Assembly: GCA_030610995.1 (NCBI GenBank)
Contig: JAUWQO010000003.1
Location: forward strand, 732 to 64,731
Direction of reading: 5' to 3'
Origin: Desulfobacterales bacterium
GTDB lineage: Bacteria > Desulfobacterota > Desulfobacteria > Desulfobacterales > ETH-SRB1
Length of the DNA: 64,000 bases
A program made the position numbers and the translations under genes. Shown here piece by piece: positions 13,534 to 52,657 of the stretch. The notes beneath the pieces are model-generated. The model did not search any database. It saw nothing but the letters and a program-made list of their open reading frames with translations, and was not told where the DNA came from. The first letter of the stretch is position 1; each line of letters opens with the position of its first letter.

Positions 13534-13881
13534 GGTAAAATCTAACGGTCTGCAATTCCGATATAAGGATTAAATCAGTCACAACTTAAACCTAAGTTGA
13601 GCGATTTTTTGCGAAGATATGTGTTGAGACCTTGATGCATAAGGATTTGCAAAAATCGCAGGCATACCCGTGGATATGTTGAGGATTTTTGTGAAGCCTT
13701 TATGCGCAAGAGATCGGCGCAGATCGAGTAAAAAATAGCTCAATTTAGGTTAAAAGATCATGGACACCTAATGTGGTGGTCTTTTTATGTCTTACACGCC
13801 CCCAGAACTATTTCATGCTATATATCTGTCGAGATTAAAATTATATTGACAAAAACAAGACTAAAAAGTACATGTGAAAAC

Positions 13882-15042
13882 ATGAAAATAGATCTTGGTT
13901 TTATCGGAAAAAATGTCCGTAAACTTAGACGGCAACGTAGTTGGACGATGGCTAAACTGGCTGCAAAAGTCGGAATGAGCGAAGCGCCATTAGGAAGAAT
14001 TGAGCGCGGTGTAAACGCCCCTTCCGCTTCTGTAATTTACAGGCTGTCAAAAGAATTGGGCGTATCGGTTGATACCCTTTTTGCCGAGGATAATCAAAAC
14101 TTCAGATATCCTCAGTATGAAAAAGCGCGCGACCCTTTTCCGGCAACAGCCGGCGGAGAAGATGAAGAACTGCCTTCCAGGATCAAAACAATGTCGCACG
14201 ATATAATAGAAGCGTTCTGTGCTCTTGAAGATATTTGCAATGCGCAAAAAAGGGCGAACATCCCACTTCTTGTTCCTTTCGATCCCACACCTGATGGCAT
14301 GGAAGCGCTTTCAGAAAAGGTGCGCTATTTTGCCGGAATTGAGCACGGCATAGTCTTTGACTATTTTGAGCTGTTTGAAACCCTTGGCTTTCGTGTAGTG
14401 GTCGTTCCAATGTCTAAAGACGTGCATAGTTTTTCGTATTATGACCCACCTAATCAGAACGCATTCTTTTTTCTTAACGCCAGGAAAAATCCTGAACGTC
14501 AGCTTTTTTGCCTGGTCTATGAATTGGGAAAGATCTTAATCCTGACTCACACGATACAGCAGGGCGTGGAATTGTTTCAAACCGATGCTGCATCTGATCC
14601 TTCAGGCGAAAAACCGTTTACAGCACATCGTGCTGCCAGGCGTTTTGCCGCTACCTTTCTGATGCCTGCAAAGGCTGTGAGCGATACAGTTAAACAATTA
14701 GGAATTCAAAAAAAGTACTGGTCTTACGAACTCTTGCTTAGAATCAAACATCGCTTTGGTGTTTCAGTAGAAGCTTTTTTATATCGTTTGAATGAACTTG
14801 ACTTAATCGATCCCTCTCTGGTTCAACCGCTTAAAGCTAAAATTCATAAATATTACGGCAAAACAGATTTTGGAGAACCCGACCTTTCCAGAAGGCTTTT
14901 AACCCCCAACGGCCGTCTGTTGGATCTGGTATTAACGGGAAAAGAATCGGAAGAAGGACATAAGGAAGTGCTTGAAATTGAGAAAGTATTGAAAAAATGG
15001 AAGGTTCACCCCTTCAGCCGTCAGGCGAAAGGGAATTTATAG
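13882..15042 (+). CDS. XRE-family HTH fused to a degenerate ImmA/IrrE (M78) peptidase-like domain
   Basis: Start taken at MKIDLGF (ATG 13882) rather than the track start 13771. HTH segment: SWTMAKLAAKVGMSEAPLGRIERG. M78-like core: RQLFCLVYELGKILILTH...AARRFAATFLMPAKAV, with the HExxH position reading YELGK. The stop overlaps a GTG at 15042 that can start cas1. Confidence 0.75.
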   Translation: MKIDLGFIGKNVRKLRRQRSWTMAKLAAKVGMSEAPLGRIERGVNAPSASVIYRLSKELGVSVDTLFAEDNQNFRYPQYEKARDPFPATAGGEDEELPSRIKTMSHDIIEAFCALEDICNAQKRANIPLLVPFDPTPDGMEALSEKVRYFAGIEHGIVFDYFELFETLGFRVVVVPMSKDVHSFSYYDPPNQNAFFFLNARKNPERQLFCLVYELGKILILTHTIQQGVELFQTDAASDPSGEKPFTAHRAARRFAATFLMPAKAVSDTVKQLGIQKKYWSYELLLRIKHRFGVSVEAFLYRLNELDLIDPSLVQPLKAKIHKYYGKTDFGEPDLSRRLLTPNGRLLDLVLTGKESEEGHKEVLEIEKVLKKWKVHPFSRQAKGNL

Positions 15043-15854
15043 TGCAACTGGTAATAAACAGCGCCGGCACATATATTACACAAAAGGATGGTCTTTTCAG
15101 GCTTAAAAATAAAGACAAACGTTTTGATGTTTCACCCCTGAAAATAGAATCAATCGTTATTTCCAACCAGGCCATGATTACTACCCAGGCAATAGCAACA
15201 GCCATGGAGAATAATATAGATATTGTTTTTCTGGATGGATATGGCGATCCGATTGGTCGAATATGGTTTGCCAAAATGGGAAGCACGGCGCTTATCCGCA
15301 GAAAACAACTGGAAATCGCAGAAGATAAAAAAGGGCTTGAACTGGTCACAGATATGATTAAACAGAAAATTAAAAACCAGGTTGGTTTTCTAAAAAAACT
15401 TGTTTATGCCAGGCCGGGCAGAGAAAATCTGTTTGAAAGCCCGATTAAAATTATAGACAGCGCTCTTTCAGGCCTATCCATGCATGACGGGACAATTGAA
15501 GATGCCAGAAACAGCATTATGGGGTTTGAGGGCACGGCAGGCAGAGCCTATTTCCAGTGCCTGTCCAAACTCATGCCTGAAAAATATATTTTCAAAGGAA
15601 GATCGCGGCAGCCTGCCAAAGATCCATTTAATGCTGTTTTAAATTATTGCTATGGAATACTTTACTCAAGGATTGAAAAAGCCTGCATACTTGCAGGGCT
15701 TGATCCCTATGTCGGCTTTCTTCACACCGATAACTACAATAAAAAATCGATGGTATTTGACCTTATCGAGCCATTTAGAATTTATGCCGAACAAACAACA
15801 GTATATCTTTTTACAGGCATAAAAAATAAAAGACGAGTATTTTCATATAGCTGA
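14997..15854 (+). CDS. cas1: CRISPR-associated endonuclease Cas1, N-terminal 285 codons (frame broken near 15823-15851)
   Basis: Cas1-like sequence (LVINSAGTYITQKDGLFRLK...NAVLNYCYGILYSRIEKA...GLDPYVGFLHTD). Alternative GTG start at 15042. The ORF ends prematurely and the rest of Cas1 continues in another frame. Confidence 0.85.
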   Translation: MEGSPLQPSGEREFIVQLVINSAGTYITQKDGLFRLKNKDKRFDVSPLKIESIVISNQAMITTQAIATAMENNIDIVFLDGYGDPIGRIWFAKMGSTALIRRKQLEIAEDKKGLELVTDMIKQKIKNQVGFLKKLVYARPGRENLFESPIKIIDSALSGLSMHDGTIEDARNSIMGFEGTAGRAYFQCLSKLMPEKYIFKGRSRQPAKDPFNAVLNYCYGILYSRIEKACILAGLDPYVGFLHTDNYNKKSMVFDLIEPFRIYAEQTTVYLFTGIKNKRRVFSYS

Positions 15855-16056
15855 TAATGCGGTTTCTTTAAATGACAAAGGAAAACCGGTTGTTGTTGAT
15901 GCGATAAACACTCATATGGAAGAAACTGTAAGATACAAAAAGAAGAATGTAAAAAGAAAGTATATCCCTCAGCACGAAGCCCACAAGCTTGCGAATATAC
16001 TGCTTTCAGGTGAAGACGAAAAAAGGCCGGAATGGCTGGAGATTAAGGAATTCTGA
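15823..16056 (+). pseudogene. cas1: Cas1 C-terminal segment in the +1 frame relative to the cas1 body
   Basis: The frame opening after TAA at 15820-15822 reads KIKDEYFHIADNAVSLNDKGKPVVVDAINTHMEETVRYKKKNVKRKYIPQHEAHKLANILLSGEDEKRPEWLEIKEF, with stop at 16054-16056. Deleting one A from the A6 run at 15821-15826 fuses the two frames. Confidence 0.7.
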
Positions 16057-16062
16057 CATCAA

Positions 16063-16246
16063 GGGGAGACAGGGAAGGGGTGAACCGGGGAACCGGAGAA
16101 CCGGAGAACCGGGGAAGCGGAGAACCGGGGAACCGGGGAACCGGAGAACCGGAGAACCGGGGAAGCGGAGAAGCGGGGAAGCGGGGAAGCGGAGAAACGG
16201 AGAAACGGAGAAACGGGGAGACGGGGAAAGGGAGAGGAGGAGAATG
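16063..16246. repeat. Tandem array of about 23 octamers GGRGAANC
   Basis: Read directly: GGGGAACC GGAGAACC GGAGAACC GGGGAAGC ... GGAGAAAC x3 ... GGAGAGGA GGAGAATG. The last two units supply the SD and the ATG of the next gene. A period of 8 nt is incompatible with coding. Confidence 0.9.
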
Positions 16247-16624
16247 GGGGAAAAGATAAAAAGCTACAAGGATTTGCGGGTTTTTCAGAATGCCATGGAT
16301 GCGGCGATGAAAATTTTTCATCTGACAAAGCAGTTTCCACCTGAAGAAAAATATTCCATGGTTGATCAAATGAGGCGATCATCTCGCTCAGTTTGTGCAA
16401 ATCTGGCCGAAGCGTGGCGAAAACGACGCTATAGGGCGGCGTTTATTGCAAAACTCAGTGATGCTGAAAGTGAAGCCTGCGAGACTCAAGTGTGGATCGA
16501 ATTTGCGCGAAGATGCAGGTACTTAAAAAATAATATCTGTAATGAACTCGACGCGGTTTATGATCAAATTATGGGGCAAATCGTGAAAATGATTGTTGAT
16601 GCAGACAAATGGCTCATAAAGTAA
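16244..16624 (+). CDS. Four-helix-bundle protein (23S rRNA intervening-sequence protein / Avd-like family)
   Basis: 126 aa from MGEKIKSYKDLRVFQNAMDAAMKIFHLTKQFPPEEKYSMVDQMRRSSRSVCANLAEAWRKR..., the characteristic N-terminal signature of this family. The track ORF 15989 adds an artefactual repeat-encoded extension. Confidence 0.8.
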   Translation: MGEKIKSYKDLRVFQNAMDAAMKIFHLTKQFPPEEKYSMVDQMRRSSRSVCANLAEAWRKRRYRAAFIAKLSDAESEACETQVWIEFARRCRYLKNNICNELDAVYDQIMGQIVKMIVDADKWLIK

Positions 16625-16651
16625 TTACCTTTTCTGAGGAAAGGTAATTAC

Positions 16652-16830
16652 GAAACGGCGAGTGGGTGAATCGGAGAACCGGAGAAGGGAGAATGGGAGA
16701 ATCGGAGAATCGGAGAATGGGAGAATCGGGGAAATAAATCACCGTTTCACCGGCACACCGTTTCACCGATTCTCAGTGTCACCGCTTCCCCGTTTCACCC
16801 TTTCTCCGTCTCTTCGTTTCGCAAACACCG
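16652..16830. repeat. Octamer array that switches strand polarity (GAATCGGA-type units, then CACCGTTT-type units)
   Basis: About 10 purine-rich octamers (16652-16735) are followed by about 12 pyrimidine-rich octamers (16738-16830). The pyrimidine-rich units approximate the reverse complement of the purine-rich units and of the upstream array. It is preceded by a perfect 12-bp hairpin, GTAATTACCTTT/AAAGGTAATTAC (16621-16651). Confidence 0.8.
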
Positions 16831-16840
16831 GAGGTGAAAT

Positions 16841-17137
16841 GTGTCTGTCCTTGTCTGGATAATATACGATATTGTTGAAAACAAACCGAGAACAAAGGTC
16901 GCCAAAGAATGTAAAAAGTTCGGTCTTATCAGGGTTCAAAAAAGCGTGTTCTTAGGAAGGCTTGAATCAAGCCGTTTTGATGAACTATCGGAAAAATGTC
17001 GTGACCTGATTGATGAAAAAATAGACAGTGTTTACCTGTTTCCTTTCTGTCAGGAGGATTTCAGGAATATAAAGGTTCTTGGTCAGGGCTTTGATAAAAA
17101 GCTTGTAAATGATGAGATTTTGGCGAAGTTTTTCTGA
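16841..17137 (+). CDS. cas2: CRISPR-associated endoribonuclease Cas2
   Basis: 98 aa with a GTG start preceded by GGAGGTG. Cas2 ferredoxin-fold signature: VLVWIIYDIVENKPRTKVAKECKKFGLIRVQKSVFLG. Confidence 0.85.
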   Translation: MSVLVWIIYDIVENKPRTKVAKECKKFGLIRVQKSVFLGRLESSRFDELSEKCRDLIDEKIDSVYLFPFCQEDFRNIKVLGQGFDKKLVNDEILAKFF

Positions 17138-17304
17138 TCCGCAGATTACGCAGATTACGCTGAAACAAATGGAGCAATTATCAGTTCTATTTTTAATATT
17201 ACTTGATATCGCAGAGATAGATATAAACATTAATACTTGTATTATTTTACAAGATGGACTATTTTATAAAGTAAGAATATATTAATTTGAAGGATAAATA
17301 TAAA

Positions 17305-17568
17305 ATGTATGCAAAAGTATCAAAGAAGGGTCAAATAACGATCCCTAAACCAATTAGGAAAAAATTAAAAATCGAAAAAGATGGCGCGGTTTTGTTTCTT
17401 GTTGAAGACAACGAGATCAAGCTAAAAGGCGTTCCCGGAGTGCAATCGAAACAATTGGCAGGGAGTCTGAAAAAATATGCAAAGGAATATGTTCCTTTAA
17501 AAAAAATAAGAAAAAAAATACAAGGTGAAATTGCTAATGAAACAGCCGCAGAAGGTTTATCTGATTGA
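17305..17568 (+). CDS. AbrB/SpoVT-type antitoxin (VapB-like)
   Basis: MYAKVSKKGQITIPKPIRKKLKI... swapped-hairpin signature. Overlaps the downstream PIN gene. Confidence 0.7.
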   Translation: MYAKVSKKGQITIPKPIRKKLKIEKDGAVLFLVEDNEIKLKGVPGVQSKQLAGSLKKYAKEYVPLKKIRKKIQGEIANETAAEGLSD

Positions 17569-17947
17569 TACAAACATTATTCTCAGGTATTTATTAGGGG
17601 ATCATCCCAAATTCAGCCCCAAAGCAGAGTCATTTATGGCAGACATATCTGAAGGGACAAAAAAGGCCGAGATACTGGATGTGGTTATTGTTGAATGCAT
17701 CTATGTTATGGAAAAATATTATCAGATTCCCAAGAGTGAAATTTCAACAAAGTTAAGCGGAATACTGAATTTTTCCGGCATTGTAAATCCCGATAGATCA
17801 GAAATCCTCGAAGCACTTCTAAAATACGGCAACACCAATATTGATATCGTAGATTGTATTCTTGCGGCCAAGTCATCTCCTGAAAAGGTCGTTGTTTCAT
17901 TTGACAAAGACATGAAAAAATTAAAAGCGGTCAGTGAGATTTTGTAA
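17537..17947 (+). CDS. PIN-domain toxin (VapC-like)
   Basis: Acidic PIN residues in order: YLIDTN, VVIVECIYV, NIDIVDC, SFDKD. The start is ambiguous (GTG 17525 or ATG 17537). Confidence 0.75.
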   Translation: MKQPQKVYLIDTNIILRYLLGDHPKFSPKAESFMADISEGTKKAEILDVVIVECIYVMEKYYQIPKSEISTKLSGILNFSGIVNPDRSEILEALLKYGNTNIDIVDCILAAKSSPEKVVVSFDKDMKKLKAVSEIL

Positions 17948-18125
17948 TAACACAGCGGCTCCAGCGGCCAGCGATATAACCACGGATTTTACGGTCATCT
18001 TTTTGCTCTTTTAAACAACGAAAAGAAAAAGCCCTATCTCCATTTTTTCGATCAGGTCGGCAATTATAAAATAGGCAGGAAAAAAAGCGGATTTTAAAGG
18101 ATGTTACTGAAATCAAGGATAAATT

Positions 18126-18788
18126 ATGAAAAAGGCAACTCTTAGTTTTAGTAATGTCAATTTGAGAGCATCTCATATACATAAATTTCGTGGTTTTATC
18201 GGAAATTTTTTTAAAAAGCATGATCTTATTCACAATCATGATTTGAAAACAGGAAAACCGATATACCGATATCCGTTAATACAGTTCAAGCTGATAGATA
18301 AAAAGCCCGCAATCATTGCTATAACGGACAGGGCTGTAAATATTTTTTCTGAAATTTTCATGAAGCTCGATAAGATTGCCATTGAAGATACTGTTATTCC
18401 TGTTTTTGAGAAGAATCTGAAGATAGAAGAAGTCGAATTCGGATATTCGGATGAAATATTCATGTACGAGTTTGTTTCTCCCTGGATCGGTCTGAATCAG
18501 AAAAACTTCAAAAAATACAGTGATGTAGGAAACGATGAAAAGAACGAAATGTTAAAAAGGGTAATGACAGGAAACATATTATCCATGGCAAAGTATCTTG
18601 ACTGCTGGCTTTCAAAAGATCAGAAAATTAAAATTGATCATAAGTTGAAAGAAATAAAAGTGAACCTTAAAGGTAAAAGCATGACAGCTTTTAACGGGAT
18701 ATTTAAAACCAATTTTTTACTACCTGATTATCTGGGGATCGGGAAATCAGTTTCACGGGGGTTTGGGGCGCTCAAGCAAGTTTTGTAA
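18126..18788 (+). CDS. cas6: CRISPR repeat endoribonuclease Cas6
   Basis: 220 aa with the C-terminal glycine-rich loop GIGKSVSRGFGALKQV typical of Cas6. First gene of the effector operon. Confidence 0.8.
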   Translation: MKKATLSFSNVNLRASHIHKFRGFIGNFFKKHDLIHNHDLKTGKPIYRYPLIQFKLIDKKPAIIAITDRAVNIFSEIFMKLDKIAIEDTVIPVFEKNLKIEEVEFGYSDEIFMYEFVSPWIGLNQKNFKKYSDVGNDEKNEMLKRVMTGNILSMAKYLDCWLSKDQKIKIDHKLKEIKVNLKGKSMTAFNGIFKTNFLLPDYLGIGKSVSRGFGALKQVL

Positions 18789-18824
18789 CAGAACTTTTTA
18801 CTAAAAAGTAAAAACGGAGAGAAT

Positions 18825-20558
18825 ATGAGTTTCGCATATAAATTATGGAAAATTGGACGCATATTGACTGAAAACGAAATCAGGGACTCAGTGTGTGATA
18901 AAGCTGAAATGGCTGAAGGTGAAGAGCCTCAATTTGCAAACATTGATTTTCAAGTTTTAAACAATGAAGTTAAAGATATTTTATGCAGCAAAAATTCTAT
19001 CAGCAAGGGAAAAATGTTTTTTACAAAAAAAATTGGTGGGGCAGGTGACGGTATTTATTACCTATATCCAAATCTAAATATCCAAAAAGAAAACCTTCAA
19101 AAGAAGATTATACAACTTGTTAACACATTAAAAAGTAGCATGCTGGTATATGCCAACGAACAAAACCGAAAAATTGCCGAACTGATTTTTTTAAAATTTG
19201 AGGAAATTAAAAAGTATATTGAGCGGGCTAAAGTTGAGTTGGAACTAATACATCTAAAAAAACAATATGAAGAACTAAATGAAAGCTCAATACATAAAGA
19301 AGATGAGACAACCGCCCAAAAAACAGATAAAAAAATAAAGAAATTTGAGAAAAAAATAGCTGAAAATAACAAAAAATGTACTAAACTTATAGAATCGCGC
19401 AAAATTTGGGATCGTCTATTATTGAAGTTATGCCGAAACCTTGTCGTTTCCCCGAAAGACAATTATTGGCTTTGGCTCTCAATAAACGGAAAAACTTTTT
19501 ATGAACTAATGCCTGAAGTATGGAGTAACTGGTATGAAAATCCAGTTTCTACTCGTAATAATTTAAAAATAGGATACGATGCTTTCACCAACAAGGAGAC
19601 TGAAGTAGGCTATAAACCTGAAGTAAAAGTTTTTTCATATGATCAATACCATAAAAGTATGGAATATCGTCTCAATGAAAACCTGCCATTATCTCTTGAA
19701 AGTGCCAGAAATATTAAATTTGCATGGATGTACATACTTAATAATCTAGTTTTTTACTACAAAGGTTTAGAGTATGTATTAATACCAAATCTTATTTCCG
19801 ATGATGCGGATTTATATAAAACAGTTTTAAACCGTTTCAGACGGGCTAATAAAAATTCAGGCGCAAAGAGATCAATCCTTGAAAAGCTTAATGCTCAGGA
19901 AAAGAAGCTGGAAAAAGATATTGATAAATTAAAGAAGAAAAAATTGAAACCAGCAAATAATGAAAATTTGAACGAATTAGTTCAGCAAAGAGAAGAAACA
20001 CTATCTAAAATAAAAGAGTTTGATACAGGTATGATAAGGGAGTTTGATGAACAGATAGATGAGGTTGGAGACATAAAAAACTCGATCACTATAGATTATA
20101 TTTTCACTTTAATAAATAGAACCAACCTATCCTTTGAGATTAAAGGATCAATTGAAGATGTAATACCAAGTCAGGTTCGGAATGTAGTTACTGAAATGGC
20201 AAACCATAATATAAGTGATCTGGTTAAGCTTGGTAAAAGAGATAGAAATGAAACACTGCTTCAGGATTGTTTTAACAGAGAGGAACTTTCATTCGTTTTA
20301 AACAGATCTCAAAAAAACAATGGAAACAAAATTCTTCAGGAGCGTTTATATCTGGCAAAGTTACTGTTAACAGATACAAAAATAGAAATCGATCAATTGC
20401 TGCAACGCTTTGAAACAAACAGGCTGCTTGGTTATGACAAAAAGAAACGCCTTACCAAAGACGGTATATCCGAATGGATTGAATTTTCAAAAAACTTCAC
20501 TACAAATGAAAATAATATTTATAACTTTTTTAAACGGTTGGGCAAAATAAAGGGGTGA
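18825..20558 (+). CDS. cas8b: Type I large subunit, Cas8b-like
   Basis: The call rests on position (between cas6 and cas7) and size (577 aa). No motif was recognised by eye. It contains two long K/E-rich coiled-coil-like insertions. Confidence 0.55.
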   Translation: MSFAYKLWKIGRILTENEIRDSVCDKAEMAEGEEPQFANIDFQVLNNEVKDILCSKNSISKGKMFFTKKIGGAGDGIYYLYPNLNIQKENLQKKIIQLVNTLKSSMLVYANEQNRKIAELIFLKFEEIKKYIERAKVELELIHLKKQYEELNESSIHKEDETTAQKTDKKIKKFEKKIAENNKKCTKLIESRKIWDRLLLKLCRNLVVSPKDNYWLWLSINGKTFYELMPEVWSNWYENPVSTRNNLKIGYDAFTNKETEVGYKPEVKVFSYDQYHKSMEYRLNENLPLSLESARNIKFAWMYILNNLVFYYKGLEYVLIPNLISDDADLYKTVLNRFRRANKNSGAKRSILEKLNAQEKKLEKDIDKLKKKKLKPANNENLNELVQQREETLSKIKEFDTGMIREFDEQIDEVGDIKNSITIDYIFTLINRTNLSFEIKGSIEDVIPSQVRNVVTEMANHNISDLVKLGKRDRNETLLQDCFNREELSFVLNRSQKNNGNKILQERLYLAKLLLTDTKIEIDQLLQRFETNRLLGYDKKKRLTKDGISEWIEFSKNFTTNENNIYNFFKRLGKIKG

Positions 20559-20563
20559 TAATT

Positions 20564-20986
20564 ATGGAGCAGGAAAGTGTTAATTTTGTGTCATATTTAA
20601 AAAAACGACAGGAAGATGACGAAATTAATTTTTTTAGCAATCCAGCTATTAAAAAAGCATATTTTATCGGAGGATATGCAAAAGCCGTTATACTGAGTTC
20701 CTATATGTCAGAAGTAAGTAGAAAAAATAAAACCTTCAAAAACTGGCTGTCGAATCAGATTATTAATTACAGGAATCTTGATCGGATTTTTGAAATGGCT
20801 TTCAGGTTTGAGCAAAAATTAAAACTCAAGCTCAGGAATGATTCTGAAGTAAGAAAACTTGCGCATGAAACACCTGCATCAAAACCACCAGGCATTTCAA
20901 GCGCACGGATAACGTTTGCCTTTGTTGCCGGCTTTGATGATTACAGGAAATTTGTCGTGGAAAATAAAATAGAAAAAATACAATAA
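20564..20986 (+). CDS. Small helical protein, probable Cas11-like small subunit (equivalent to the Cas8b C-terminal domain)
   Basis: 140-143 aa. The ORF overlaps the cas8 stop (GTG 20555 / ATG 20564, with AAAGGGG 8 nt upstream). The helical pattern AYFIGGYAKAVILSSYM...FKNWLSNQ resembles C-terminal domains of TM1802/Cas8b-type proteins. Confidence 0.4.
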   Translation: MEQESVNFVSYLKKRQEDDEINFFSNPAIKKAYFIGGYAKAVILSSYMSEVSRKNKTFKNWLSNQIINYRNLDRIFEMAFRFEQKLKLKLRNDSEVRKLAHETPASKPPGISSARITFAFVAGFDDYRKFVVENKIEKIQ

Positions 20987-21002
20987 AAAAGGAGACGAAA
21001 TA

Positions 21003-21932
21003 ATGGATAATCTTGCAAAGCAGAGTGAAATTCTTTTTATGTGGGATGCCAGAATGTGCAACCCAAATGGCGATATGGGGGCTGATAATTCACCGCGATT
21101 CGATGATGTTGATGAAAAAGCTATTGTAAGTGATGTCAGGGTAAAAAGAACTGTGAGAGATGACCTACAATATCGAAAAGGAGAAACTATATATATTAAT
21201 AATGAAGAGATACTTTCCAAAGGTTTGAAAGCCGAGGAACGTTTTTCACAACTGAAAGATGTCAATTCTGGGAAAAATGATAAAGATGTTTTTCTTACAT
21301 GTATCGACAACAGGCTTTTTGGTGGTGTTGCCCCTAAAAGCGATATCCAGCTTGTTGGTGCTGTACAATTCTGCTGGGCAAAATCGCTTAATAAAACTGA
21401 AACAGTTTTAAAACCCGGGACCGGTGCTTTTGCAACAAAGGGAGCTGACGGTGAAACAAAGTTTAAAAAAACGTTCCGGGCTGACAATTATATTCCATAT
21501 GGACTTTTTGCGATGTATGGAAGCGTAAACAGATTACAAGCAACGAACGACAATACAACTGAGGATGATATTACAAATATGCTTGATTCTTTGTGGCATG
21601 GAACAAAGTTCCTAAATACAAGAAGCAAGCAGGGGCAAAAACCCCGTTTTCTTCTCAGGATAATTTACAAAGAAGAGAGTAAATATTTTATCGGTCTTTT
21701 AGATGAGTTTATATGTTTAAACAATCAGGAGAATAGCGGAAATATCAGGGAAATCGAAGAGGCGGACATTAAATTTGATAAACTCGTTGCGGCTATATCG
21801 AAAGCTAAAAATCAAATAGAAAAAGTCATGATCGTGCTGGACGAGTCATTAGAAAAATATAGAAATATTTTGGAAAAAATTAAAAATGTCGAATTCACAG
21901 ATGAAATTAACATTATGAAAAAAGAGAGATAG
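21003..21932 (+). CDS. cas7: Cas7 backbone subunit (Csh2/Csd2 family)
   Basis: N-terminal signature ILFMWDARMCNPNGDMGADNSPRFD...VSDVRVKRTVRD, typical of the CT1132/Csd2-Csh2 family. Confidence 0.8.
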   Translation: MDNLAKQSEILFMWDARMCNPNGDMGADNSPRFDDVDEKAIVSDVRVKRTVRDDLQYRKGETIYINNEEILSKGLKAEERFSQLKDVNSGKNDKDVFLTCIDNRLFGGVAPKSDIQLVGAVQFCWAKSLNKTETVLKPGTGAFATKGADGETKFKKTFRADNYIPYGLFAMYGSVNRLQATNDNTTEDDITNMLDSLWHGTKFLNTRSKQGQKPRFLLRIIYKEESKYFIGLLDEFICLNNQENSGNIREIEEADIKFDKLVAAISKAKNQIEKVMIVLDESLEKYRNILEKIKNVEFTDEINIMKKER

Positions 21933-21935
21933 GCT

Positions 21936-22814
21936 ATGTTTGGATTTAAATTATGGGGAAGATTTGGTTCATTTAGAGATCCAATAACCATAACTCAGAA
22001 TATGACTTTCAGTATCCCTCCCAAAACAACAGTGGGAGGGATGTTGGCATCAATTCTGGGCATTGATTATAATGACTATTTTGATGATAATGACTATTTT
22101 GATTTCGGTTACTCGCTGGTTCTCAACAATCCGGTACGCAAAAAGAGTTTTTCGCAAAATTATATAATGGATTATACAAAAACCTCAGCAATCAGATTTA
22201 ATTTAATGCTGACAATCCGGGACAACAATCATGAGGCGATGTTGTACGAAAATCAGAAAAAAGAACTGGCATCAAAAGAAACTCGCACGAAAATGGAAGA
22301 AAGAAAATTAAAAGGCCTGGAAGAGAAGATTGAAACAGCGGAAAAAAAAGTGAGCAAAGCAATCAATAATTGGAGTGAAAAAAGTTCGGGAAGATTTGCA
22401 AAAGCAAAGCCCATATATAGAGAATTGCTGATTAATCCGTCTTTCTATATATTCATAAACAAATTCAAGCACGAAGATAAAATTATTGAATTAATGAAAG
22501 AACATTTGAGTGAATTTCCTTTATACATGGGTAATAGTGAATTTGCGGCAAATTATCAGTTTATTGATTGCCAAAAGTATGAAAAAAAGAAAATCATGGG
22601 ACTTGATTCTTTTACAGGGAATCCGGAAAAAATTAAATTTGAGTCGGGAAAAAAATATACAAGTGTATATGCTGCAACACGCACAACTGGAAGCCGTGAG
22701 TACAGGGATTATAAAAGTATGGTTGTTTGCGATAAAAAGATAATATTATTATCTGCAATTGATGGTTACAGTCTGAATACAGACACGGGAGATTTTAATT
22801 GTGAGTTTATTTGA
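21936..22814 (+). CDS. cas5: Cas5 subunit (with internal K/E-rich insertion)
   Basis: N-terminus FGFKLWGRFGSFRDPITITQNMTFSIPPKTTVGGMLASILG matches the Cas5 signature. At 292 aa it is longer than usual. Confidence 0.7.
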   Translation: MFGFKLWGRFGSFRDPITITQNMTFSIPPKTTVGGMLASILGIDYNDYFDDNDYFDFGYSLVLNNPVRKKSFSQNYIMDYTKTSAIRFNLMLTIRDNNHEAMLYENQKKELASKETRTKMEERKLKGLEEKIETAEKKVSKAINNWSEKSSGRFAKAKPIYRELLINPSFYIFINKFKHEDKIIELMKEHLSEFPLYMGNSEFAANYQFIDCQKYEKKKIMGLDSFTGNPEKIKFESGKKYTSVYAATRTTGSREYRDYKSMVVCDKKIILLSAIDGYSLNTDTGDFNCEFI

Positions 22815-25059
22815 AATACCTGATATTTATTTCTCTCATCCGGATGAATACCCATTATCAACACATATAAAAAATATTGCTGCATCGTTTAATGATCCAA
22901 CTCACAAGAGAGCTGCTGCTTTTCATGATTTGGGAAAATTGAATAATAAATTTCAACAAAATATTAATAATGGAGGGCGGTTACCCTTTCACTCTTTTGA
23001 AGGAGCATTTTTTTTTCTTCTTAATAATAATTTGACAATTGATATTGATTCATTTGGAATATTTTTATCAATTTTAAAACATCATGGCAATCTGCCTGAT
23101 GTTAATTCGCTTGCTGAAGATATACTTGCCGATGAAGATTATATTTTAAGGAATCATCCGGACTTAAAGGATACGATTCAACAAATAAAAAAAATCATAC
23201 AGATAAATTTACATTTTGAACTGGAAGATTGCTATGAAATATTTGATACTGAATCATTTGTTAATGATAACAAGTTGAATGGGCTGTATTCTTTTTTCAG
23301 AATCAGGGAAATATTTTCTCAATTAATATTTGCCGATAAATATGAAGCAATTTTCAAGAAAGAATTCAGGACCGGCTGGTCTTTTGAATTTGATAAATTT
23401 AATAAAAAGCTACTGACCCATATTGGTAGCAAAATGAATGCATTATCTCCGGTTAGGAATGCTGCCAGAGTTGATGTTATTGAAAATTTTAAACAAAATA
23501 ACGATAAAAAAATATTCTTTCTTGAAGCGCCAACTGGAATCGGCAAAACATTTACAGCTCTTCACCTTGCTTTACAGATTGCAGGAGAAAAAAATAAAAA
23601 ACGGATTATTAATGCACTTCCTATGACGTCAATTATTGATCAGACATATGAAGAGTATGCAAAGGTAATTGATCCAAATATATTATTAAAATATCACTAT
23701 TTGACAAATACAAAAGAGTATATTTTTCCGGATAAGGAAAAAGAAAACGAAAAGAATTTTTTCAGGCAAAAGAATGACTTTATCAGTTCATCGTGGGGAT
23801 TGGATCAGGTTATAATAACTACATTTAATCAAATCTTAAATGCATTTTATTCAAACAAAAATCGTGATTTGATAAAATTTTGGACATTAAGGGATTCTGT
23901 AATAATTTTTGATGAGATCCAAGCCGTTCCCAGAATACTGCTAAAAGATTTTTCAGAAACAATCAGTTTTTTATCCAGAGAATTTAATATTGATTTTGTT
24001 CTTATGTCAGCCACCATTCCGGCAATAAAGAAGTTTTTTAAGCCCGAAACGACATCCGAGCTGCTTGATTTAAAATATTATTCCATGGACTTCAATAATC
24101 GGTATTCAATAAAATTTATTGAAAAGATTGATACTGCCGGAAAACTGACAGAACAAATCTTGAGAAAATATGAAAAAAACAACTCTTTGGTTTGCGTCGT
24201 TAATACAAAAAAACTTGCTTTGGAGATATACGAAAAGATTGAAGAAATTTATAAAGCAGATGAAATTTTTTTATTAAGCACATTATTCATACCTCAAGAT
24301 CGAAAAAATATTATAAGCGTAATAAGTAACAGACTGAAAAATAAGCAGAAAACTATTCTTATTTCAACTCAGGTAATTGAAGCCGGTGTTGACCTTGATT
24401 TTGATTACGGTTTCAGGGAGTTCGCGCCTTTATATAGTATTATCCAAACTGCTGGCCGAATAAATCGTGAAAACAGGGATGAAGTAAGAAAAAGCGCAGA
24501 ACTCATCATTACAAACAAGATTGGAGCGAGTCCATACAAACCGGCAGATTTGTTATATGACGAAGTAACCGAATTGCTAAAAACCAAAATAAGAGAAAAT
24601 AGAATACTGCCCTTTTTAAAAAAATATTTCGAAATGGCGATCAAACGAGCTCCGCAGGAGTTTGTTTTAGTCGATCATATGAAACAACTTGATTTTGAAA
24701 AAACAGCGCAACAATTTGACAGCAGTTTTATGCAAACGCTGCCTAATATAATACCTGTATTTATAGAAATTGAAGATGGCTTATACGAGAGCATTTGTTC
24801 TAAAAGAAATAAAATAATCGAAGAATTGAAAGCACCTAATATATCTCTTGAATATAAAATGGAACGAAAAAGTATTTTAAAGCATATGAATAAAACTATT
24901 TCAAAATATGTCATCAATATTTGTAATGATGAAGCTAAAGCATTTCTTGACTTTGAAAATTATGGGGACATGAAGGTTTGTAATTATTCATATGTAAAAA
25001 GTGGTCTGTATTCGGATAAGAAAGGATGGACTGGTTTTTCATCAACATTATTGTTTTAA
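22801..25059 (+). CDS. cas3: Cas3 HD nuclease-helicase fusion
   Basis: HD domain (AAFHDLGKLNNKFQ, LKHHG), then SF2 helicase motifs (EAPTGIGKT, IIFDEIQAV, MSATIP, TQVIEAGVD). GTG start overlaps the cas5 end. Confidence 0.9.
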   Translation: MSLFEIPDIYFSHPDEYPLSTHIKNIAASFNDPTHKRAAAFHDLGKLNNKFQQNINNGGRLPFHSFEGAFFFLLNNNLTIDIDSFGIFLSILKHHGNLPDVNSLAEDILADEDYILRNHPDLKDTIQQIKKIIQINLHFELEDCYEIFDTESFVNDNKLNGLYSFFRIREIFSQLIFADKYEAIFKKEFRTGWSFEFDKFNKKLLTHIGSKMNALSPVRNAARVDVIENFKQNNDKKIFFLEAPTGIGKTFTALHLALQIAGEKNKKRIINALPMTSIIDQTYEEYAKVIDPNILLKYHYLTNTKEYIFPDKEKENEKNFFRQKNDFISSSWGLDQVIITTFNQILNAFYSNKNRDLIKFWTLRDSVIIFDEIQAVPRILLKDFSETISFLSREFNIDFVLMSATIPAIKKFFKPETTSELLDLKYYSMDFNNRYSIKFIEKIDTAGKLTEQILRKYEKNNSLVCVVNTKKLALEIYEKIEEIYKADEIFLLSTLFIPQDRKNIISVISNRLKNKQKTILISTQVIEAGVDLDFDYGFREFAPLYSIIQTAGRINRENRDEVRKSAELIITNKIGASPYKPADLLYDEVTELLKTKIRENRILPFLKKYFEMAIKRAPQEFVLVDHMKQLDFEKTAQQFDSSFMQTLPNIIPVFIEIEDGLYESICSKRNKIIEELKAPNISLEYKMERKSILKHMNKTISKYVINICNDEAKAFLDFENYGDMKVCNYSYVKSGLYSDKKGWTGFSSTLLF

Positions 25060-26415: not shown

Positions 26416-26539
26416 GCAGACCCGCCTGCCATAGCTTATAATAATTCAGTTGGTGATTGATGAACTTAGTGAACAACACCGTTGTGTTTGCTTTGATATG
26501 TAATACAGGCATAGCGGGCAGGTTACGCAGATTACACAG
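26416..26539. repeat. GC-rich word element related to the repeats at 44371-44612, plus GCAGRTTAC words
   Basis: ACCCGCCTGCCAT (26419-26431) is the exact reverse complement of ATGGCAGGCGGGT at 44463-44475 and 44596-44608. GCGGGCAGGT (26514-26523) is the reverse complement of ACCTGCCCGC at 44373-44382 and 44504-44513. Confidence 0.5.
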
Positions 26540-26661
26540 ATTTTTCTGCCTGTGCATTGCACGCAGATAGGCGTGAATTATTGGGTTTAATTTCCCGAAA
26601 CTTGCTTAAATTGTGAAAATCAGATGCACGAAACCAGGCAGGTTGCTGTGGGACCAGTTTA

Positions 26662-27270: not shown

Positions 27271-27960
27271 ATTGAAGAGAAGAATCCATTAAAACAAGGA
27301 TTGAAACAAGCGTTAAGAGATTCGAATGAAGGAAAGGAAAGGGATTGAAGAGAAGAATCCATTAAAACAAGGATTGAAACTCTTTTCCGCCCCGATATGT
27401 CAAACAGGCAAATCCAAATTGAAGAGAAGAATCCATTAAAACAAGGATTGAAACACGATGGCATCGATGACAGACAGTCCGAGACGTTGATTGAAGAGAA
27501 GAATCCATTAAAACAAGGATTGAAACAGAATATGGGAACTACAAGAGGTAATTCTATTCTTATTGAAGAGAAGAATCCATTAAAACAAGGATTGAAACCC
27601 ATCAATTCGCATCCTGCATCAAACCCGTAAATAATTGAAGAGAAGAATCCATTAAAACAAGGATTGAAACTCTGCGCCAATAAGACAATCGGTATTCTTA
27701 ATTCTTATTGAAGAGAAGAATCCATTAAAACAAGGATTGAAACAGGACATACCACGTCAGGTATGCAGAAATAGCTGGCATTGAAGAGAAGAATCCATTA
27801 AAATAAGGATTGAAACCTGCACCTACCTTTGCCCTTGCCTTAGAAAATCTCATTGAAGAGAAGAATCCATTAAAACAAGGATTGAAACTCCATGAGTGGA
27901 CGTGAGCAAACAGGTTCAGCCGCATTAAAGAGAAGATTCCATTAAAACAAGGATTGAAAC
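27271..27960 (+). CRISPR. CRISPR array, 10 repeats of 37 nt and 9 spacers of 35-37 nt
   Basis: Repeat ATTGAAGAGAAGAATCCATTAAAACAAGGATTGAAAC starts at 27271, 27344, 27418, 27490, 27562, 27634, 27707, 27780 (C25T variant), 27852 and 27924 (G4A, A14T). The internal AATCC/GGATT stem is followed by the 8-nt handle ATTGAAAC. Confidence 0.97.
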
Positions 27961-30808: not shown

Positions 30809-31040
30809 GTTCAGCCACAAAGTCACAAAGACACTAAGATTCTAAAATGATTATTTATTTCTTTTTACCCCGCCATGGCGGGGTAAAAAGTCGTCACTCC
30901 GGTGAAAACCGGAGTCCAGATAGTTTACAACTACTTGAAAGGATCCGCCAGAGCACTTTGGCGAACTTTCGCCGAAATGACGAAAAAAGGTTTTGAAAAA
31001 TATGTCTTTCTTTTGTGACTTGGTGCCTTGGTGGCTGAAC
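30809..31040. repeat. Word-repeat inverted-repeat cassette (CACAAAG family), copy A
   Basis: Left arm GTTCAGCCACAAAGTCACAAAGACACTAAGATTCTAAAATG. Right arm ...CATATTTTTCAAAACC-type sequence ending TTTTGTGACTTGGTGCCTTGGTGGCTGAAC. Both arms recur in inverted order at 52489-52657. Confidence 0.65.
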
Positions 31041-39854: not shown

Positions 39855-40008
39855 GCCACTAAGGCACAAAGGCACAAAGGCACAAAGGCACAAAGGCACA
39901 AAGAAGGAATATGATTGAGGGATTAAAATCAATAGAATACTCGCAATTCCTAAATTATAAATTATGAATTTTAGGAGAATTATATTATATTCTTGGTGTC
40001 TTTGTGGC
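39854..40008. repeat. Word-repeat cassette (GGCACAAA x5), CACAAAG family copy C
   Basis: Five perfect tandem octamers GGCACAAA at 39863-39902. The opposing arm TTGGTGTCTTTGTGGC lies at 39993-40008. Confidence 0.7.
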
Positions 40009-52488: not shown

Positions 52489-52657
52489 AGTTCAGCCACC
52501 AAGACACAAAGGCATAAAGGAAAGACATATTTTTCAAAACCTTATATGAAAGGAAGAATTCATTCCCTAAAAAAATTACAGATATTGCTTTTTACTGTGC
52601 ATAAGAAATAAATAACCATTTTAGAATCTTAGTGTCTTTGTGACTTTGTGGCTGACC
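52489..52657. repeat. Word-repeat cassette, CACAAAG family copy B (inverted relative to copy A)
   Basis: Left arm GTTCAGCCACCAAGACACAAAGGCATAAAGGAAAGACATATTTTTCAAAACC. Right arm CATTTTAGAATCTTAGTGTCTTTGTGACTTTGTGGCTGACC, nearly identical to the reverse complement of the left arm of copy A. Confidence 0.65.

What the first reader, a model, noticed from the sequence alone, without database searches (positions are those of the whole stretch)
16057..16840. Avd/IVS-type four-helix-bundle gene wrapped in octamer tandem arrays, inserted exactly between cas1 and cas2
cas1 ends at 16056. From 16063 about 23 tandem octamers (GGRGAANC) run straight into the SD and ATG of a 126-aa four-helix-bundle gene. 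That family contains 23S rRNA intervening-sequence ORFs and the DGR accessory protein Avd. After the gene comes a perfect 12-bp hairpin, then about 10 more purine-rich octamers, and then about 12 octamers of roughly complementary polarity (CACCGTTT...) ending at the cas2 SD/GTG. The arrays can pair locally or across the ORF into a very long imperfect stem, as in RNase III-processed rRNA intervening sequences. An IVS-like, ORF-carrying structured cassette inside a CRISPR adaptation operon is not something I know to be described. It could modulate cas2 expression, provide a nucleic-acid-binding accessory factor, or be a selfish insertion.
Basis: partly seen in the sequence, partly recalled or inferred. 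Interest (0 to 1): 0.7.

Follow-up and report, generated by a model that had tools for sequence, protein, structure and literature searches.

The report
Selfish four-helix-bundle cassette inside cas operon
The gene wedged between cas1 and cas2 is one copy of a widespread, apparently mobile cassette (a small four-helix-bundle gene wrapped in inverted runs of 8-base repeats) that sits between genes of many unrelated operons in many phyla, so it looks like a passenger in the CRISPR locus and not a CRISPR part.

Summary
A frameshifted cas1 ends at 16056. About 22 purine octamers (16063-16243) run into a 126-aa PF05635 gene (16244-16624). Then come 8-9 purine octamers (16663-16733), about 10 complementary octamers (16739-16820), and the cas2 SD/GTG.

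The cassette is not peculiar to this locus. In 80 loci of relatives from at least eight phyla, period-8 arrays are 22-fold enriched next to the gene. The two arms co-vary. The gene is co-directional with its upstream neighbour in 88% of loci, and the neighbours belong to 88 different Pfam families.

Among cas1-cas2 junctions of related type I-B systems I found every state:
- empty junctions (0-30 nt);
- full cassettes;
- an internally deleted gene;
- ORF-less octamer hairpins;
- a 26%-identical PF05635 gene with a different octamer at the same junction.

These states are interspersed on the Cas1 tree. The gene is under purifying selection.

Best reading: an IVS-type selfish cassette, transcribed by read-through, whose arms fold into a long duplex. 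RNase III processing is inferred, not shown. PF05635 genes in cas loci were already reported. I found no description of the octamer-array architecture, the ORF-less derivatives or the intra-operon habit.

The parts
14997..16056 (+). cas1 (type I-B context), disrupted by a 1-nt frameshift in an A-run near 15826-15836
   Evidence: PF01867 E 1e-71. The two frames are shown. The alignment with six intact orthologues places the shift at ...LFTG|KK.... The same sequence occurs in ENA contig L001.
16063..16243 (+). A1: upstream purine-rich tandem octamer array (about 22 units, GGRGAANC). Its last units supply the SD (GGAGG, 16236-16240) and merge into the first codons.
   Evidence: TRF period 8, 20.9 copies. 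Pattern search gives 36 matches against 4.2 expected.
16244..16624 (+). 126-aa four-helix-bundle protein gene (PF05635 / TIGR02436, the 23S rRNA IVS-protein family), with the family motif RxxxSxxxNxxE
   Evidence: PDB sequence relatives 2RLD and 2GSC. Among cas-linked copies the median pN/pS is about 0.12.
16621..16651 (+). Perfect 12-bp hairpin overlapping the stop codon. It is private to this lineage and probably not functional.
   Evidence: fold. Absent from L002, whose protein is 97% identical.
16663..16733 (+). A2: downstream purine octamer array (8-9 units), a direct repeat of A1
   Evidence: TRF period 8, 8.4 copies. L088 and L089 differ only by a 16-nt (two-unit) indel in the equivalent array.
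16739..16820 (+). PY: pyrimidine-rich octamer array (about 10 units, TCACCGTT), complementary to A1 and A2
   Evidence: TRF. Duplex energies A1xPY -106.5 and A2xPY -77.5 kcal/mol. The local hairpin 16622-16845 has z -4.3.
16830..17137 (+). cas2 with its own SD (GGAGG, 16830-16834) and GTG start (16841) immediately after the cassette
   Evidence: PF09827 E 9e-22. The right-edge motif ACCGGAGGTGAAAT is shared with L098, L111 and L114.

Best explanation
The 784-bp cas1-cas2 spacer holds one copy of a widespread cassette with no detectable promoter: a PF05635 four-helix-bundle (4HB) gene embedded between inverted arrays of 8-nt tandem repeats. It is an IVS-type selfish element, mobile now or in the past, that lives in intergenic junctions of operons in the sense orientation. 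It is a passenger in this CRISPR locus and not a dedicated adaptation component.

Shown:
- The architecture recurs across phyla and across deep PF05635 subfamilies, each with its own octamer.
- The two arms co-vary.
- The cassette is present, absent, ORF-deleted or reduced to an ORF-less hairpin at the same cas1|cas2 junction in related systems.
- A second subfamily inserted there independently.
- The arrays change by whole octamers.
- The ORF is under purifying selection.

Inferred:
- The cassette is transcribed by read-through from cas1. No promoter or terminator match lies inside it, and the orientation bias points the same way.
- The purine array provides the ribosome-binding site.
- In the transcript the pyrimidine arm pairs with a purine arm (A1 across the ORF, or A2 locally) to give a long imperfect duplex. 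By analogy with ORF-carrying rRNA intervening sequences, RNase III would cut this duplex, releasing the 4HB message and separating the cas1 and cas2 cistrons. cas2 keeps its own SD.
- Recombination or slippage between the direct purine arrays A1 and A2 deletes the ORF and leaves the ORF-less hairpins seen in relatives.

The biochemical role of the protein is unknown. It is probably nucleic-acid binding for the element's own benefit.
For: Generality:
- 570 of 600 candidate stretches in the genome collection encode relatives. The best 80 (61-97% identity) come from Desulfobacterota, Nitrospirota, Acidobacteriota, Bacteroidota, Cyanobacteriota, Chloroflexota, Verrucomicrobiota and others.
- Period-8/16/24 arrays occur at 3.08 per kb within 250 nt of the gene and at 0.14 per kb elsewhere in the same loci. 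Of 72 loci with full flanks, 46 have an upstream array, 47 a downstream array and 34 both. Period 8 dominates: 147 of 239 arrays.
- Upstream arrays are purine-rich in 43 of 48 loci. The array ends a median of 16 nt before the start codon.
- Arms co-vary. The upstream consensus matches the reverse complement of its own downstream consensus at 5.97 of 8 positions, against 5.09 of 8 across loci; 0 of 5000 permutations reach this.
- The architecture is seen in finished genomes of cultured strains: Nostoc punctiforme PCC 73102 pNPUN02 and Nostoc edaphicum pNe_5.

Promiscuity and orientation:
- The 75 upstream neighbours hit 88 Pfam families; only 6 are Cas1.
- The upstream gene is co-directional in 66 of 75 loci, against a background of 65.5% (p 9e-6).
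- L006 (WYL / ORF6N context) and L007 (flavin reductase / ComB context) fall inside the cas-linked 4HB clade.

Dynamics at cas1|cas2:
- 13 full cassettes with both flanking genes on the contig.
- 6 ORF-less hairpins: L082, L087, L091, L111, L114, L137.
- 1 internally deleted gene: L094.
- About 50 empty junctions.
- These states are interspersed on the Cas1 tree.
- L134 carries a 26%-identical PF05635 gene with GAGTTGTA octamers at the same junction. L156 carries a 78% relative of that gene, with the same octamer type, at cas3|cas1.
- L088 and L089 differ only by 16 nt in an array.
- In Nostoc plasmids a 498-nt cassette corresponds to 27-30 nt at homologous empty sites.

Selection and turnover:
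- Median pN/pS is 0.12.
- Third-position divergence of the 4HB gene is lower than that of the adjacent cas2: 6/126 against 23/97 (p 4e-5) for L001-L002, and 18/126 against 37/98 (p 8e-5) for L005-L103.

Structure. No promoter or terminator match lies inside the cassette.

Precedent: the Coxiella ORF-carrying IVS is bordered by inverted repeats and excised by RNase III (PMC4990558).
Against: - There are no expression or processing data. RNase III cleavage is an analogy only.
- Arm mismatches show no G.U over A.C bias (58 against 51), and transversions predominate (148). Nothing therefore shows that pairing is selected at the level of the sense RNA and not of DNA.
- No target-site duplication or clean boundary was found, and no recombinase is encoded. 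Mobility is inferred from distribution only.
- The 4HB tree is broadly congruent with the Cas1 tree within the cas-linked clade, and dS is saturated between distant members. Long residence with repeated loss explains much of the pattern, and such persistence could also reflect usefulness to the host.
- In my Cas1-centred sample, at least three independent insertions into cas operons is compatible with chance only if genomes carry tens of copies. I did not measure copy number.
Confidence: 0.55

Rival explanations
1. Domesticated adaptation accessory. The 4HB protein, a relative of the DGR reverse-transcriptase cofactor Avd, works with Cas1-Cas2 (for example in prespacer or nucleic-acid handling), and that is why it is kept between the two genes.
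For: - The cas1-4HB-cas2 order is kept in at least 13 loci whose Cas1 proteins have diverged to about 70% identity, with the ORF intact and pN/pS about 0.12.
- A second PF05635 subfamily sits at the same junction (L134) and a third copy at cas3|cas1 (L156).
- The literature reports 18 PF05635 genes in cas loci (PMC3936711) and an adaptation-linked IVP system, UAS-8 (PMC10910872).
Against: - Members of the same protein clade lie in unrelated operons.
- Close relatives have lost the ORF and kept cas1-cas2 (L087, whose Cas1 is 94% identical to that of a full locus; L082) or have an empty junction (L083, L092, L130).
- The window's own cas1 is frameshifted.
- UAS-8 is a different arrangement: IVP plus DUF2325 downstream of cas2, without arrays.
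- No PADLOC model matches.
Confidence: 0.12
2. DNA-level mobile element. The octamer arrays are subterminal repeated binding sites, or DNA hairpins, and the pentameric 4HB protein recognises its own octamers and promotes movement, copying or gene conversion of the cassette. The ORF-less array hairpins would be non-autonomous derivatives. RNA folding would be incidental.
For: - The octamer type travels with the protein subfamily, not with the host or the target. L134 and L156 (78% identical) share GAGTT-type octamers at different junctions. One genome (L037) carries two subfamilies (34% identical) with GAATCGGA and AGTGTCAA octamers.
- No RNA-type (G.U) bias appears in arm mismatches.
- ORF-less forms exist.
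- Synonymous divergence is lower in the 4HB gene than in its flanks, which suggests exchange or conversion.
- Whole-cassette presence/absence is seen in Nostoc plasmids.
Against: - There is no nuclease or recombinase domain; the only Pfam hit above cut-off is PF05635.
- There is no target-site duplication.
- Linkage alone explains why octamer and protein are inherited together.
- An 8-bp spacing is an awkward geometry for binding duplex DNA.
- The orientation bias relative to host transcription is not required by a purely DNA-level mechanism, except to express the ORF.
Confidence: 0.2
3. Host cis-regulatory device. The arrays are kept because they tune cas2 (or cas1:cas2) expression. For example, the pyrimidine arm could sequester the octamer-like cas2 ribosome-binding site unless it is titrated by the purine arms, or the hairpin could stabilise or punctuate the mRNA.
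For: - The cas2 SD region (CCGGAGGTGAAAT) resembles a purine unit and is complementary to TTTCACC units of the PY arm. The L111 fold pairs them.
- ORF-less hairpins persist at the junction in six loci.
- Empty junctions place the cas2 SD inside the cas1 3' end, so any insertion must change the coupling between the two genes.
Against: - The same arrays flank PF05635 genes in operons of every kind.
- Array length is highly unstable, with the cas1 stop to ATG distance ranging from 19 to 206 nt.
- Many close relatives do without any insert.
- Hairpin z-scores of the ORF-less forms are modest, -2.0 to -2.5.
Confidence: 0.1
4. Assembly artefact or chance low-complexity sequence.
For: Most close homologues lie on short metagenomic contigs, and repeats often break assemblies.
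Against: - An identical sequence occurs in an independent ENA contig.
- The same architecture is present in finished genomes of cultured Nostoc strains.
- There is strong statistical enrichment.
Confidence: 0.01

Closest known systems
ORF-carrying 23S rRNA intervening sequences (Leptospira, Coxiella burnetii IVS with S23p; PMC4990558)
   Same: Same protein family (PF05635). The ORF is enclosed by complementary flanks that fold into a long stem. It sits inside a host transcript in the sense orientation, is sporadically present or absent among relatives, its ORF is prone to decay, and it is regarded as selfish.
   Different: It lies between two protein-coding genes and not in an rRNA helix. Its arms are long tandem arrays of 8-nt units (tens to about 200 nt, imperfect) and not a unique stem of about 28 bp. 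There is an extra direct purine array (A1 plus A2). The ORF here is under purifying selection. RNase III excision has not been tested.
PF05635 genes reported in cas loci (Zhang, Doak and Ye 2013, PMC3936711) and UAS-8, '23S rRNA IVP + DUF2325 + RT sometimes' (Altae-Tran et al. 2023, PMC10910872)
   Same: A PF05635 gene physically inside CRISPR-cas loci or adaptation modules.
   Different: UAS-8, as seen in Pseudanabaena pPg_04, is cas1-cas2-IVP-DUF2325, with no flanking octamer arrays and a protein only 38% identical. The 2013 paper lists the genes but neither the repeat architecture nor the presence/absence series.
DGR accessory protein Avd
   Same: Remote homology and a four-helix-bundle fold. 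Avd is a basic pentamer that binds a reverse transcriptase and RNA.
   Different: Scores fall below the Avd model cut-offs (23.5 against 80; 24.3 against 40). Among the neighbouring genes I scanned there is no reverse transcriptase, and I did not look for template/variable repeats.
REP/REPIN elements with their RAYT gene, and MITEs
   Same: A small gene flanked by inverted repeats that also occur, far more often, as ORF-less inverted-repeat doublets in intergenic spacers. This gives an autonomous / non-autonomous look.
   Different: There is no HUH/Y1 or any other transposase domain. The arms are tandem octamer arrays and not a single palindromic unit. No target-site duplication was found.
Cyanobacterial short tandemly repeated repetitive (STRR) heptamers (from my own knowledge)
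   Same: Short tandem units in intergenic regions, sometimes forming hairpins between co-transcribed genes. Heptamer arrays are seen beside some cyanobacterial copies (L069).
   Different: STRRs are heptamers and, to my knowledge, are not known to be tied to a gene family. Here the period is 8, the arrays come as inverted pairs, and they are attached to PF05635 genes.

Membership tests
PF05635 / TIGR02436 (23S rRNA IVS protein, 'four helix bundle protein') | Profile score above the curated cut-off | tested here: met
   PF05635 105.3 bits against 33.8; TIGR02436 97.7 bits against 24.
PF05635 / TIGR02436 | Family motif GxxRxxxSxxxNxxE (PMC3936711) | tested here: met
   The translation reads ...DQMRRSSRSVCANLAEAW..., which matches RxxxSxxxNxxE; the leading G of the motif is Q here.
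PF05635 / TIGR02436 | Four-helix bundle assembling into a pentamer | not tested
   Only sequence relatives with solved structures were found: 2RLD at E 1e-8 and 2GSC at E 9e-8. No model was built.
DGR Avd | Score above the equivalog cut-off | tested here: not met
   NF033474 23.5 bits against 80; PF22296 24.3 bits against 40.
DGR Avd | Adjacent reverse transcriptase and template/variable repeats | tested here: inconclusive
   The genes I scanned from 13771 to 25059 are IrrE-HTH, cas1, cas2, mazE/PIN, cas6, cas8b, cas7, cas5 and cas3, plus one 143-aa ORF with no Pfam hit. None is a reverse transcriptase. Template/variable repeats were not searched for.
rRNA intervening sequence (IVS) | Inserted in a 23S/16S rRNA helix | tested here: not met
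   It lies between the cas1 stop (16056) and the cas2 start (16841). No Rfam hit reaches the gathering score in 15800-17300.
rRNA intervening sequence (IVS) | Complementary flanks forming a stem that encloses the ORF | tested here: met
   Predicted only. The MFE pairs A1 with PY (z -5.2). The duplex energy is -106.5 kcal/mol.
rRNA intervening sequence (IVS) | Excision from the transcript by RNase III | not testable with these tools
   This needs end mapping or an rnc mutant. The precedent is PMC4990558.
rRNA intervening sequence (IVS) | Sporadic presence among close relatives | tested here: met
   Full, ORF-less, remnant and empty states are interspersed on the Cas1 tree.
UAS-8 adaptation-linked IVP system (PMC10910872) | IVP gene followed by a DUF2325 gene (sometimes with an RT) next to cas1-cas2 | tested here: not met
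   There is no DUF2325 gene. The 4HB gene lies between cas1 and cas2 and is followed directly by cas2. The real UAS-8 layout is seen in L164.
Transposable element (IS/MITE) | Encoded transposase or recombinase | tested here: not met
   The only Pfam hit above cut-off is PF05635. PADLOC gives nothing and PHROGs only a weak Avd match.
Transposable element (IS/MITE) | Target-site duplication at the boundaries | tested here: inconclusive
   None is visible at cas1|cas2 or at the Nostoc full and empty sites, where 498 nt replaces 27-30 nt. Array decay blurs the ends.
Transposable element (IS/MITE) | Related copies in different genomic contexts, with presence/absence polymorphism | tested here: met

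The most novel reading that the evidence does not exclude
PF05635 genes with their inverted tandem-octamer arms would form a previously unrecognised, phylum-spanning class of mobile elements, with autonomous (ORF-bearing) and non-autonomous (ORF-less array hairpin) forms. In this reading the pentameric four-helix-bundle protein specifically recognises its own 8-nt repeats, on RNA or single-stranded DNA. It would then drive copying or conversion of the cassette into operon junctions and rRNA helices, possibly with a reverse transcriptase supplied in trans, as Avd does in DGRs. The fixed 8-nt step would reflect the protein's footprint or a templated repeat-addition step. That would finally give the 'IVS ORF' a function.
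Probability: 0.2. Interest if true: 0.85.

Novelty: new variant of a known kind. Interest (0 to 1): 0.6.

Why it matters
For CRISPR biology this is a caution. A gene family that association screens flag as 'adaptation-linked' can be a promiscuous intergenic passenger. The junction series (full, ORF-deleted, hairpin-only, empty) shows how such passengers come and go between cas1 and cas2, and how they must alter the coupling between the two genes.

For mobile-element and RNA biology, the result links the 30-year-old puzzle of the ORF in rRNA intervening sequences to a much larger population of cassettes in mRNA operons. These cassettes have a simple, searchable hallmark: inverted arrays of 8-nt repeats whose sequence is specific to the protein subfamily. 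That makes the function of a very large uncharacterised protein family directly testable in cultured organisms such as Nostoc punctiforme.

Tried and rejected
- G.U against A.C mismatch asymmetry in the arms, to decide between RNA-level and DNA-level selection: no bias (58 against 51).
- RNAduplex z-scores of 220-nt flanks across the 80 loci: not discriminating, because purine-rich and pyrimidine-rich shuffles still pair. I replaced this test with array counts, k-mer sharing and consensus permutation.
- Target-site duplications and exact boundaries: none at cas1|cas2 or in the Nostoc full/empty comparison.
- 'Octamers are derived from the target.' L134's GAGTTGTA resembles the cas1 3' end GAGTTTTAG. 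I rejected this as a general rule, because L156 carries the same octamer type at a different junction.
- 'Octamers are SD mimics.' Rejected as a general rule, because other subfamilies use AGTGTCAA, GAGTTGAG or GTATCGGT.
- Rfam: only sub-threshold miRNA-precursor-like hits, which reflect a generic long hairpin.
- Promoter and terminator scan: nothing inside the cassette and no excess over shuffles.
- The 12-bp hairpin as a functional element: not conserved in L002.
- Viral-contig scans for broader sampling: one alignment was too divergent to search with and the other gave only 2 loci.
- Literature searches for a description of octamer arrays around PF05635 genes found none. The library is incomplete, so absence is not proof.
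- The dN/dS values for L009 are invalid because of a frame error in my extraction, and I ignored them.
Full report
OBSERVATION

- cas1 stops at 16054-16056, but it is broken by a frameshift in an A-run near 15826-15836. One frame runs 14997-15854 and the other continues to 16056. Six orthologues read straight through ...LFTGKKMKDKYF....
- Tandem Repeats Finder reports a period-8 array of 20.9 copies at 16063-16229, with its core at 89% match. Degenerate units continue into the SD (GGAGG, 16236-16240) and the ATG at 16244.
- The ORF 16244-16624 encodes 126 aa. It matches PF05635 (23S_rRNA_IVP) at E 2.5e-30 and TIGR02436 at E 4e-28. The Avd models score below their cut-offs. Its closest solved relatives are the uncharacterised proteins 2RLD and 2GSC.
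- A perfect 12-bp hairpin (16621-16651) overlaps the stop codon.
- Then come 8.4 purine octamers (16668-16733), 10.2 complementary octamers (16739-16820), the cas2 SD (16830-16834) and the GTG start at 16841.
- The octamer pattern occurs 36 times in the window against 4.2 expected, and 32 of those are here.
- The sequence is identical in an independent ENA contig.

FOLDING

- As RNA, 16040-16860 folds to -280.1 kcal/mol (z -5.2). A long imperfect stem joins the 3' half of the upstream array (A1) to the pyrimidine array (PY) and encloses the ORF.
- PY can instead pair with the adjacent purine array A2 (local hairpin, z -4.3).
- A1xPY is the stronger duplex, at -106.5 against -77.5 kcal/mol. Forbidding long-range pairs costs about 40 kcal/mol.
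- Rfam has no family for it; there are only sub-threshold miRNA-precursor-like hits.
- No promoter-like or terminator-like site lies inside the cassette.

THE CASSETTE IS A GENERAL THING, NOT A PECULIARITY OF THIS LOCUS

A protein search returned thousands of relatives at 80-96% identity, mostly on short contigs. The best 80 loci (61-97% identity) come from Desulfobacterota, Nitrospirota, Acidobacteriota, Bacteroidota, Cyanobacteriota, Chloroflexota, Verrucomicrobiota and more.

- Almost every locus has period-8 tandem arrays directly upstream of the gene and complementary ones downstream.
- Arrays of period 8, 16 or 24 occur at 3.08 per kb within 250 nt of the gene, against 0.14 per kb in the rest of the same loci.
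- Of 72 loci with full flanks, 46 have an upstream array, 47 a downstream array and 34 both.
- Upstream arrays are purine-rich in 43 of 48 loci and end a median of 16 nt before the start codon.
- The octamer differs between lineages (GAAACGGA, GACACGGA, GCGGGGAC, GTATCGGT, GGGCGAGC, GCAGGGGA...), but the two arms of a locus match each other. Own arms agree at 5.97 of 8 positions, against 5.09 across loci, and 0 of 5000 permutations reach this.
- The architecture is present in finished genomes of cultured strains. In Nostoc punctiforme PCC 73102 plasmid pNPUN02, GCAGGGGA units precede the annotated 'four helix bundle protein' NPUN_RS36250, and CCCCTGCT-type units follow it, inside a co-directional gene row. 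Nostoc edaphicum pNe_5 is similar.
- Deeply divergent PF05635 subfamilies show the same design with their own repeats:
  - L134, 26% identical, GAGTTGTA;
  - L156, GAGTT-type;
  - a second gene in L037, 34% identical to the first, AGTGTCAA / TTGACACT;
  - Calothrix, TAGGGTGT upstream;
  - one case with period 7.

CONTEXT

- The 75 upstream neighbours hit 88 different Pfam families, including response regulators, MCPs, T2SS-K, aminotransferases, EF-G and biotin carboxylase. Only six are Cas1.
- The gene is co-directional with its upstream neighbour in 66 of 75 loci and with both neighbours in 48 of 67. The background co-directionality in the same loci is 65.5% (p about 1e-5 and 2e-6).
- The cassette usually fills the whole intergenic spacer.
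- The picture is of a cassette without a detectable promoter that sits inside operons in the sense orientation.

THE cas1|cas2 JUNCTION

The closest relatives (82-97% identity: L002-L005, L008-L010) are also between cas1 and cas2. Their Cas1 is only about 70% identical to the window's.

A Cas1-directed metagenome scan gave 80 further loci:

- Many have cas1 and cas2 separated by 0-30 nt or overlapping. In these the cas2 SD often lies inside the cas1 3' end.
- Six more have the full cassette: L086, L088, L089, L098, L103, L119.
- Six have a 95-206-nt spacer made only of purine octamers followed by pyrimidine octamers: L082, L087, L091, L111, L114, L137. These fold into hairpins (z -2.0 to -2.5).
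- L094 has an internally deleted 4HB gene between arrays.
- L134 has the unrelated-looking (26%) PF05635 gene with different octamers at the same junction.
- L156 has a 78% relative of that gene between cas3 and cas1.

On a Cas1 tree the states are interspersed within the clade at 63% identity or above. For example, L003 (full) pairs with L087 (hairpin only). The window and L002 (full) group with L082 (hairpin) and L083 (empty). L119 (full) pairs with L092 (empty). The states are absent from the 51-57% clade.

Two otherwise identical cassettes, L088 and L089, differ only by a 16-nt, two-unit indel in an array. The cas1 stop to ATG distance ranges from 19 to 206 nt among full loci. The post-stop hairpin of the window is missing in L002.

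SELECTION AND HISTORY

- Among cas-linked copies the 4HB gene has a median pN/pS of about 0.12, which is lower than cas1 (0.20) and cas2 (0.13). Synonymous sites are saturated between distant loci.
- In closer pairs the 4HB gene is less diverged at synonymous sites than its flanks. L001-L002 has pS 0.08 against 0.44 and 0.41, and third-position differences of 6/126 against 23/97 (p 4e-5). L005-L103 has 18/126 against 37/98 (p 8e-5).
- The cas-linked proteins form one clade that also contains L006 (after a WYL gene, before ORF6N) and L007 (between flavin reductase and ComB).
- In Nostoc plasmids a 498-nt cassette corresponds to 27-30 nt at homologous empty sites, with no target-site duplication.

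My reading of these facts:
- The cassette has resided at this junction for a long time and has repeatedly been lost or decayed.
- There were at least two further independent insertions into cas operons.
- There was some exchange or conversion of the ORF.
- Because A1 and A2 are direct repeats flanking the ORF, recombination or slippage between them is a simple route to the hairpin-only forms. This last step is inferred.

MECHANISM

Shown:
- the anatomy, its generality and the co-variation of the arms;
- the orientation bias;
- the unit-wise instability of the arrays;
- the presence/absence series;
- purifying selection on the ORF.

Inferred:
- read-through transcription from cas1;
- use of the purine array as the ribosome-binding site;
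- formation of the A1:PY or A2:PY duplex in the transcript;

Weak points:
- Arm mismatches show no G.U over A.C bias (58 against 51, with 148 transversions). Selection for pairing in the sense RNA is therefore not demonstrated, and a DNA-level role of the arms remains open.
- No recombinase is encoded, and no boundary signature was found.

COMPARISON WITH WHAT IS KNOWN

- The protein is a bona fide PF05635 / TIGR02436 member and is not an Avd.
- The element works like an rRNA IVS but fails the defining location, since it is in an mRNA operon.
- PF05635 genes in cas loci were listed in 2013 (PMC3936711).
- 'UAS-8: 23S rRNA IVP + DUF2325 + RT sometimes' was linked to adaptation modules in 2023 (PMC10910872). 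I saw that layout in Pseudanabaena pPg_04. It is cas1-cas2-IVP-DUF2325 without arrays, so it is a different thing.
- I found no paper that describes the tandem-octamer arms, the ORF-less derivatives or the intra-operon habit. The library is incomplete.

VERDICT

- The CRISPR-specific interpretations are not supported, and the 'selfish insertion' option is favoured.
- The wider pattern is a family-wide hallmark architecture for a very large uncharacterised protein family. It is the interesting part and appears to be new.
- I rate it a new variant of a known kind (IVS-type selfish cassettes), with interest 0.6.

Noticed in passing
window 15826-15836 (cas1 14997-16056): cas1 carries a 1-nt frameshift in an A-run. 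Six orthologues are intact. The same sequence is in ENA contig L001, so this is either a real pseudogene or a shared homopolymer error.
   Followed up: partly
window 30816-30838 / 31011-31033; 39857-39903 / 39992-40006; 52497-52519 / 52628-52650: A second family of ORF-less inverted octamer-array elements: CACAAAGN units, then 100-170 nt, then CTTTGTGN units, with the conserved outer motif CAGCCAC...GTGGCTG. The pattern gives 15 hits against 0.7 expected. The arms are conserved and the interiors are unrelated.
   Followed up: partly
window 17140-17160 and 26518-26542; L004 just after the cas1 stop: A 9-nt tandem repeat (GCAGATTAC, 2.3-2.8 copies) directly after the cas2 stop and again about 0.9 kb upstream of the CRISPR array. 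A similar CAGATTACG / CCGATTACG run lies between the cas1 stop and the purine array in L004.
   Followed up: no
window 17287-17947: A MazE-type antitoxin / PIN toxin pair sits between cas2 and cas6. It is conserved at 82-95% identity in L002, L003 and L009, but in L003 and L009 it lies upstream of cas1, so its position within the locus has moved.
   Followed up: partly
window 27418-27888: CRISPR array (period 72) downstream of the type I-B genes cas6, cas8b, cas7, cas5 and cas3 (18126-25059).
   Followed up: no
L134 2104-2552; L156 1830-2500: Independent insertions of another PF05635 subfamily (26% identical to the window's protein; the two are 78% identical to each other) with GAGTT-type octamers, at cas1|cas2 and at cas3|cas1. 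In L134 the array starts inside the cas1 stop region, and cas1 ends ...KEL* and not ...KEF*.
   Followed up: yes
L088 and L089 cassettes: The cas1, 4HB and cas2 sequences are identical. The only difference is a 16-nt (two-octamer) indel in the downstream purine array, so array length changes faster than point substitutions accumulate.
   Followed up: yes
L001-L002 and L005-L103 pairs: Synonymous divergence of the 4HB gene is 3-5 times lower than that of the flanking cas1 and cas2. This suggests exchange or gene conversion of the ORF, or an unusual constraint on synonymous sites.
   Followed up: partly
L162 (Nostoc edaphicum pNe_5) against L168 and L169: The whole cassette is present or absent between homologous plasmid sites in cultured Nostoc strains. 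A 498-nt segment replaces 27-30 nt, with no target-site duplication.
   Followed up: yes
L164 (Pseudanabaena galeata pPg_04) 1-2225: A long cas1, then cas2, a PF05635 gene and a weak DUF2325 gene. This is the published UAS-8 layout. It has a C-rich / G-rich hairpin upstream of the 4HB gene but no octamer arrays.
   Followed up: partly
window 16795-16840; L111 3610-3644: The cas2 ribosome-binding region (CCGGAGGTGAAAT) looks like a purine octamer unit and is complementary to TTTCACC units of the PY arm. In the L111 fold the two pair, so the arm could mask the cas2 RBS.
   Followed up: no
L109 and L112 cas1-cas2 spacers (194 nt): A different, unrelated 194-nt insert with its own hairpin occupies the same cas1|cas2 junction in two loci.
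   Followed up: no
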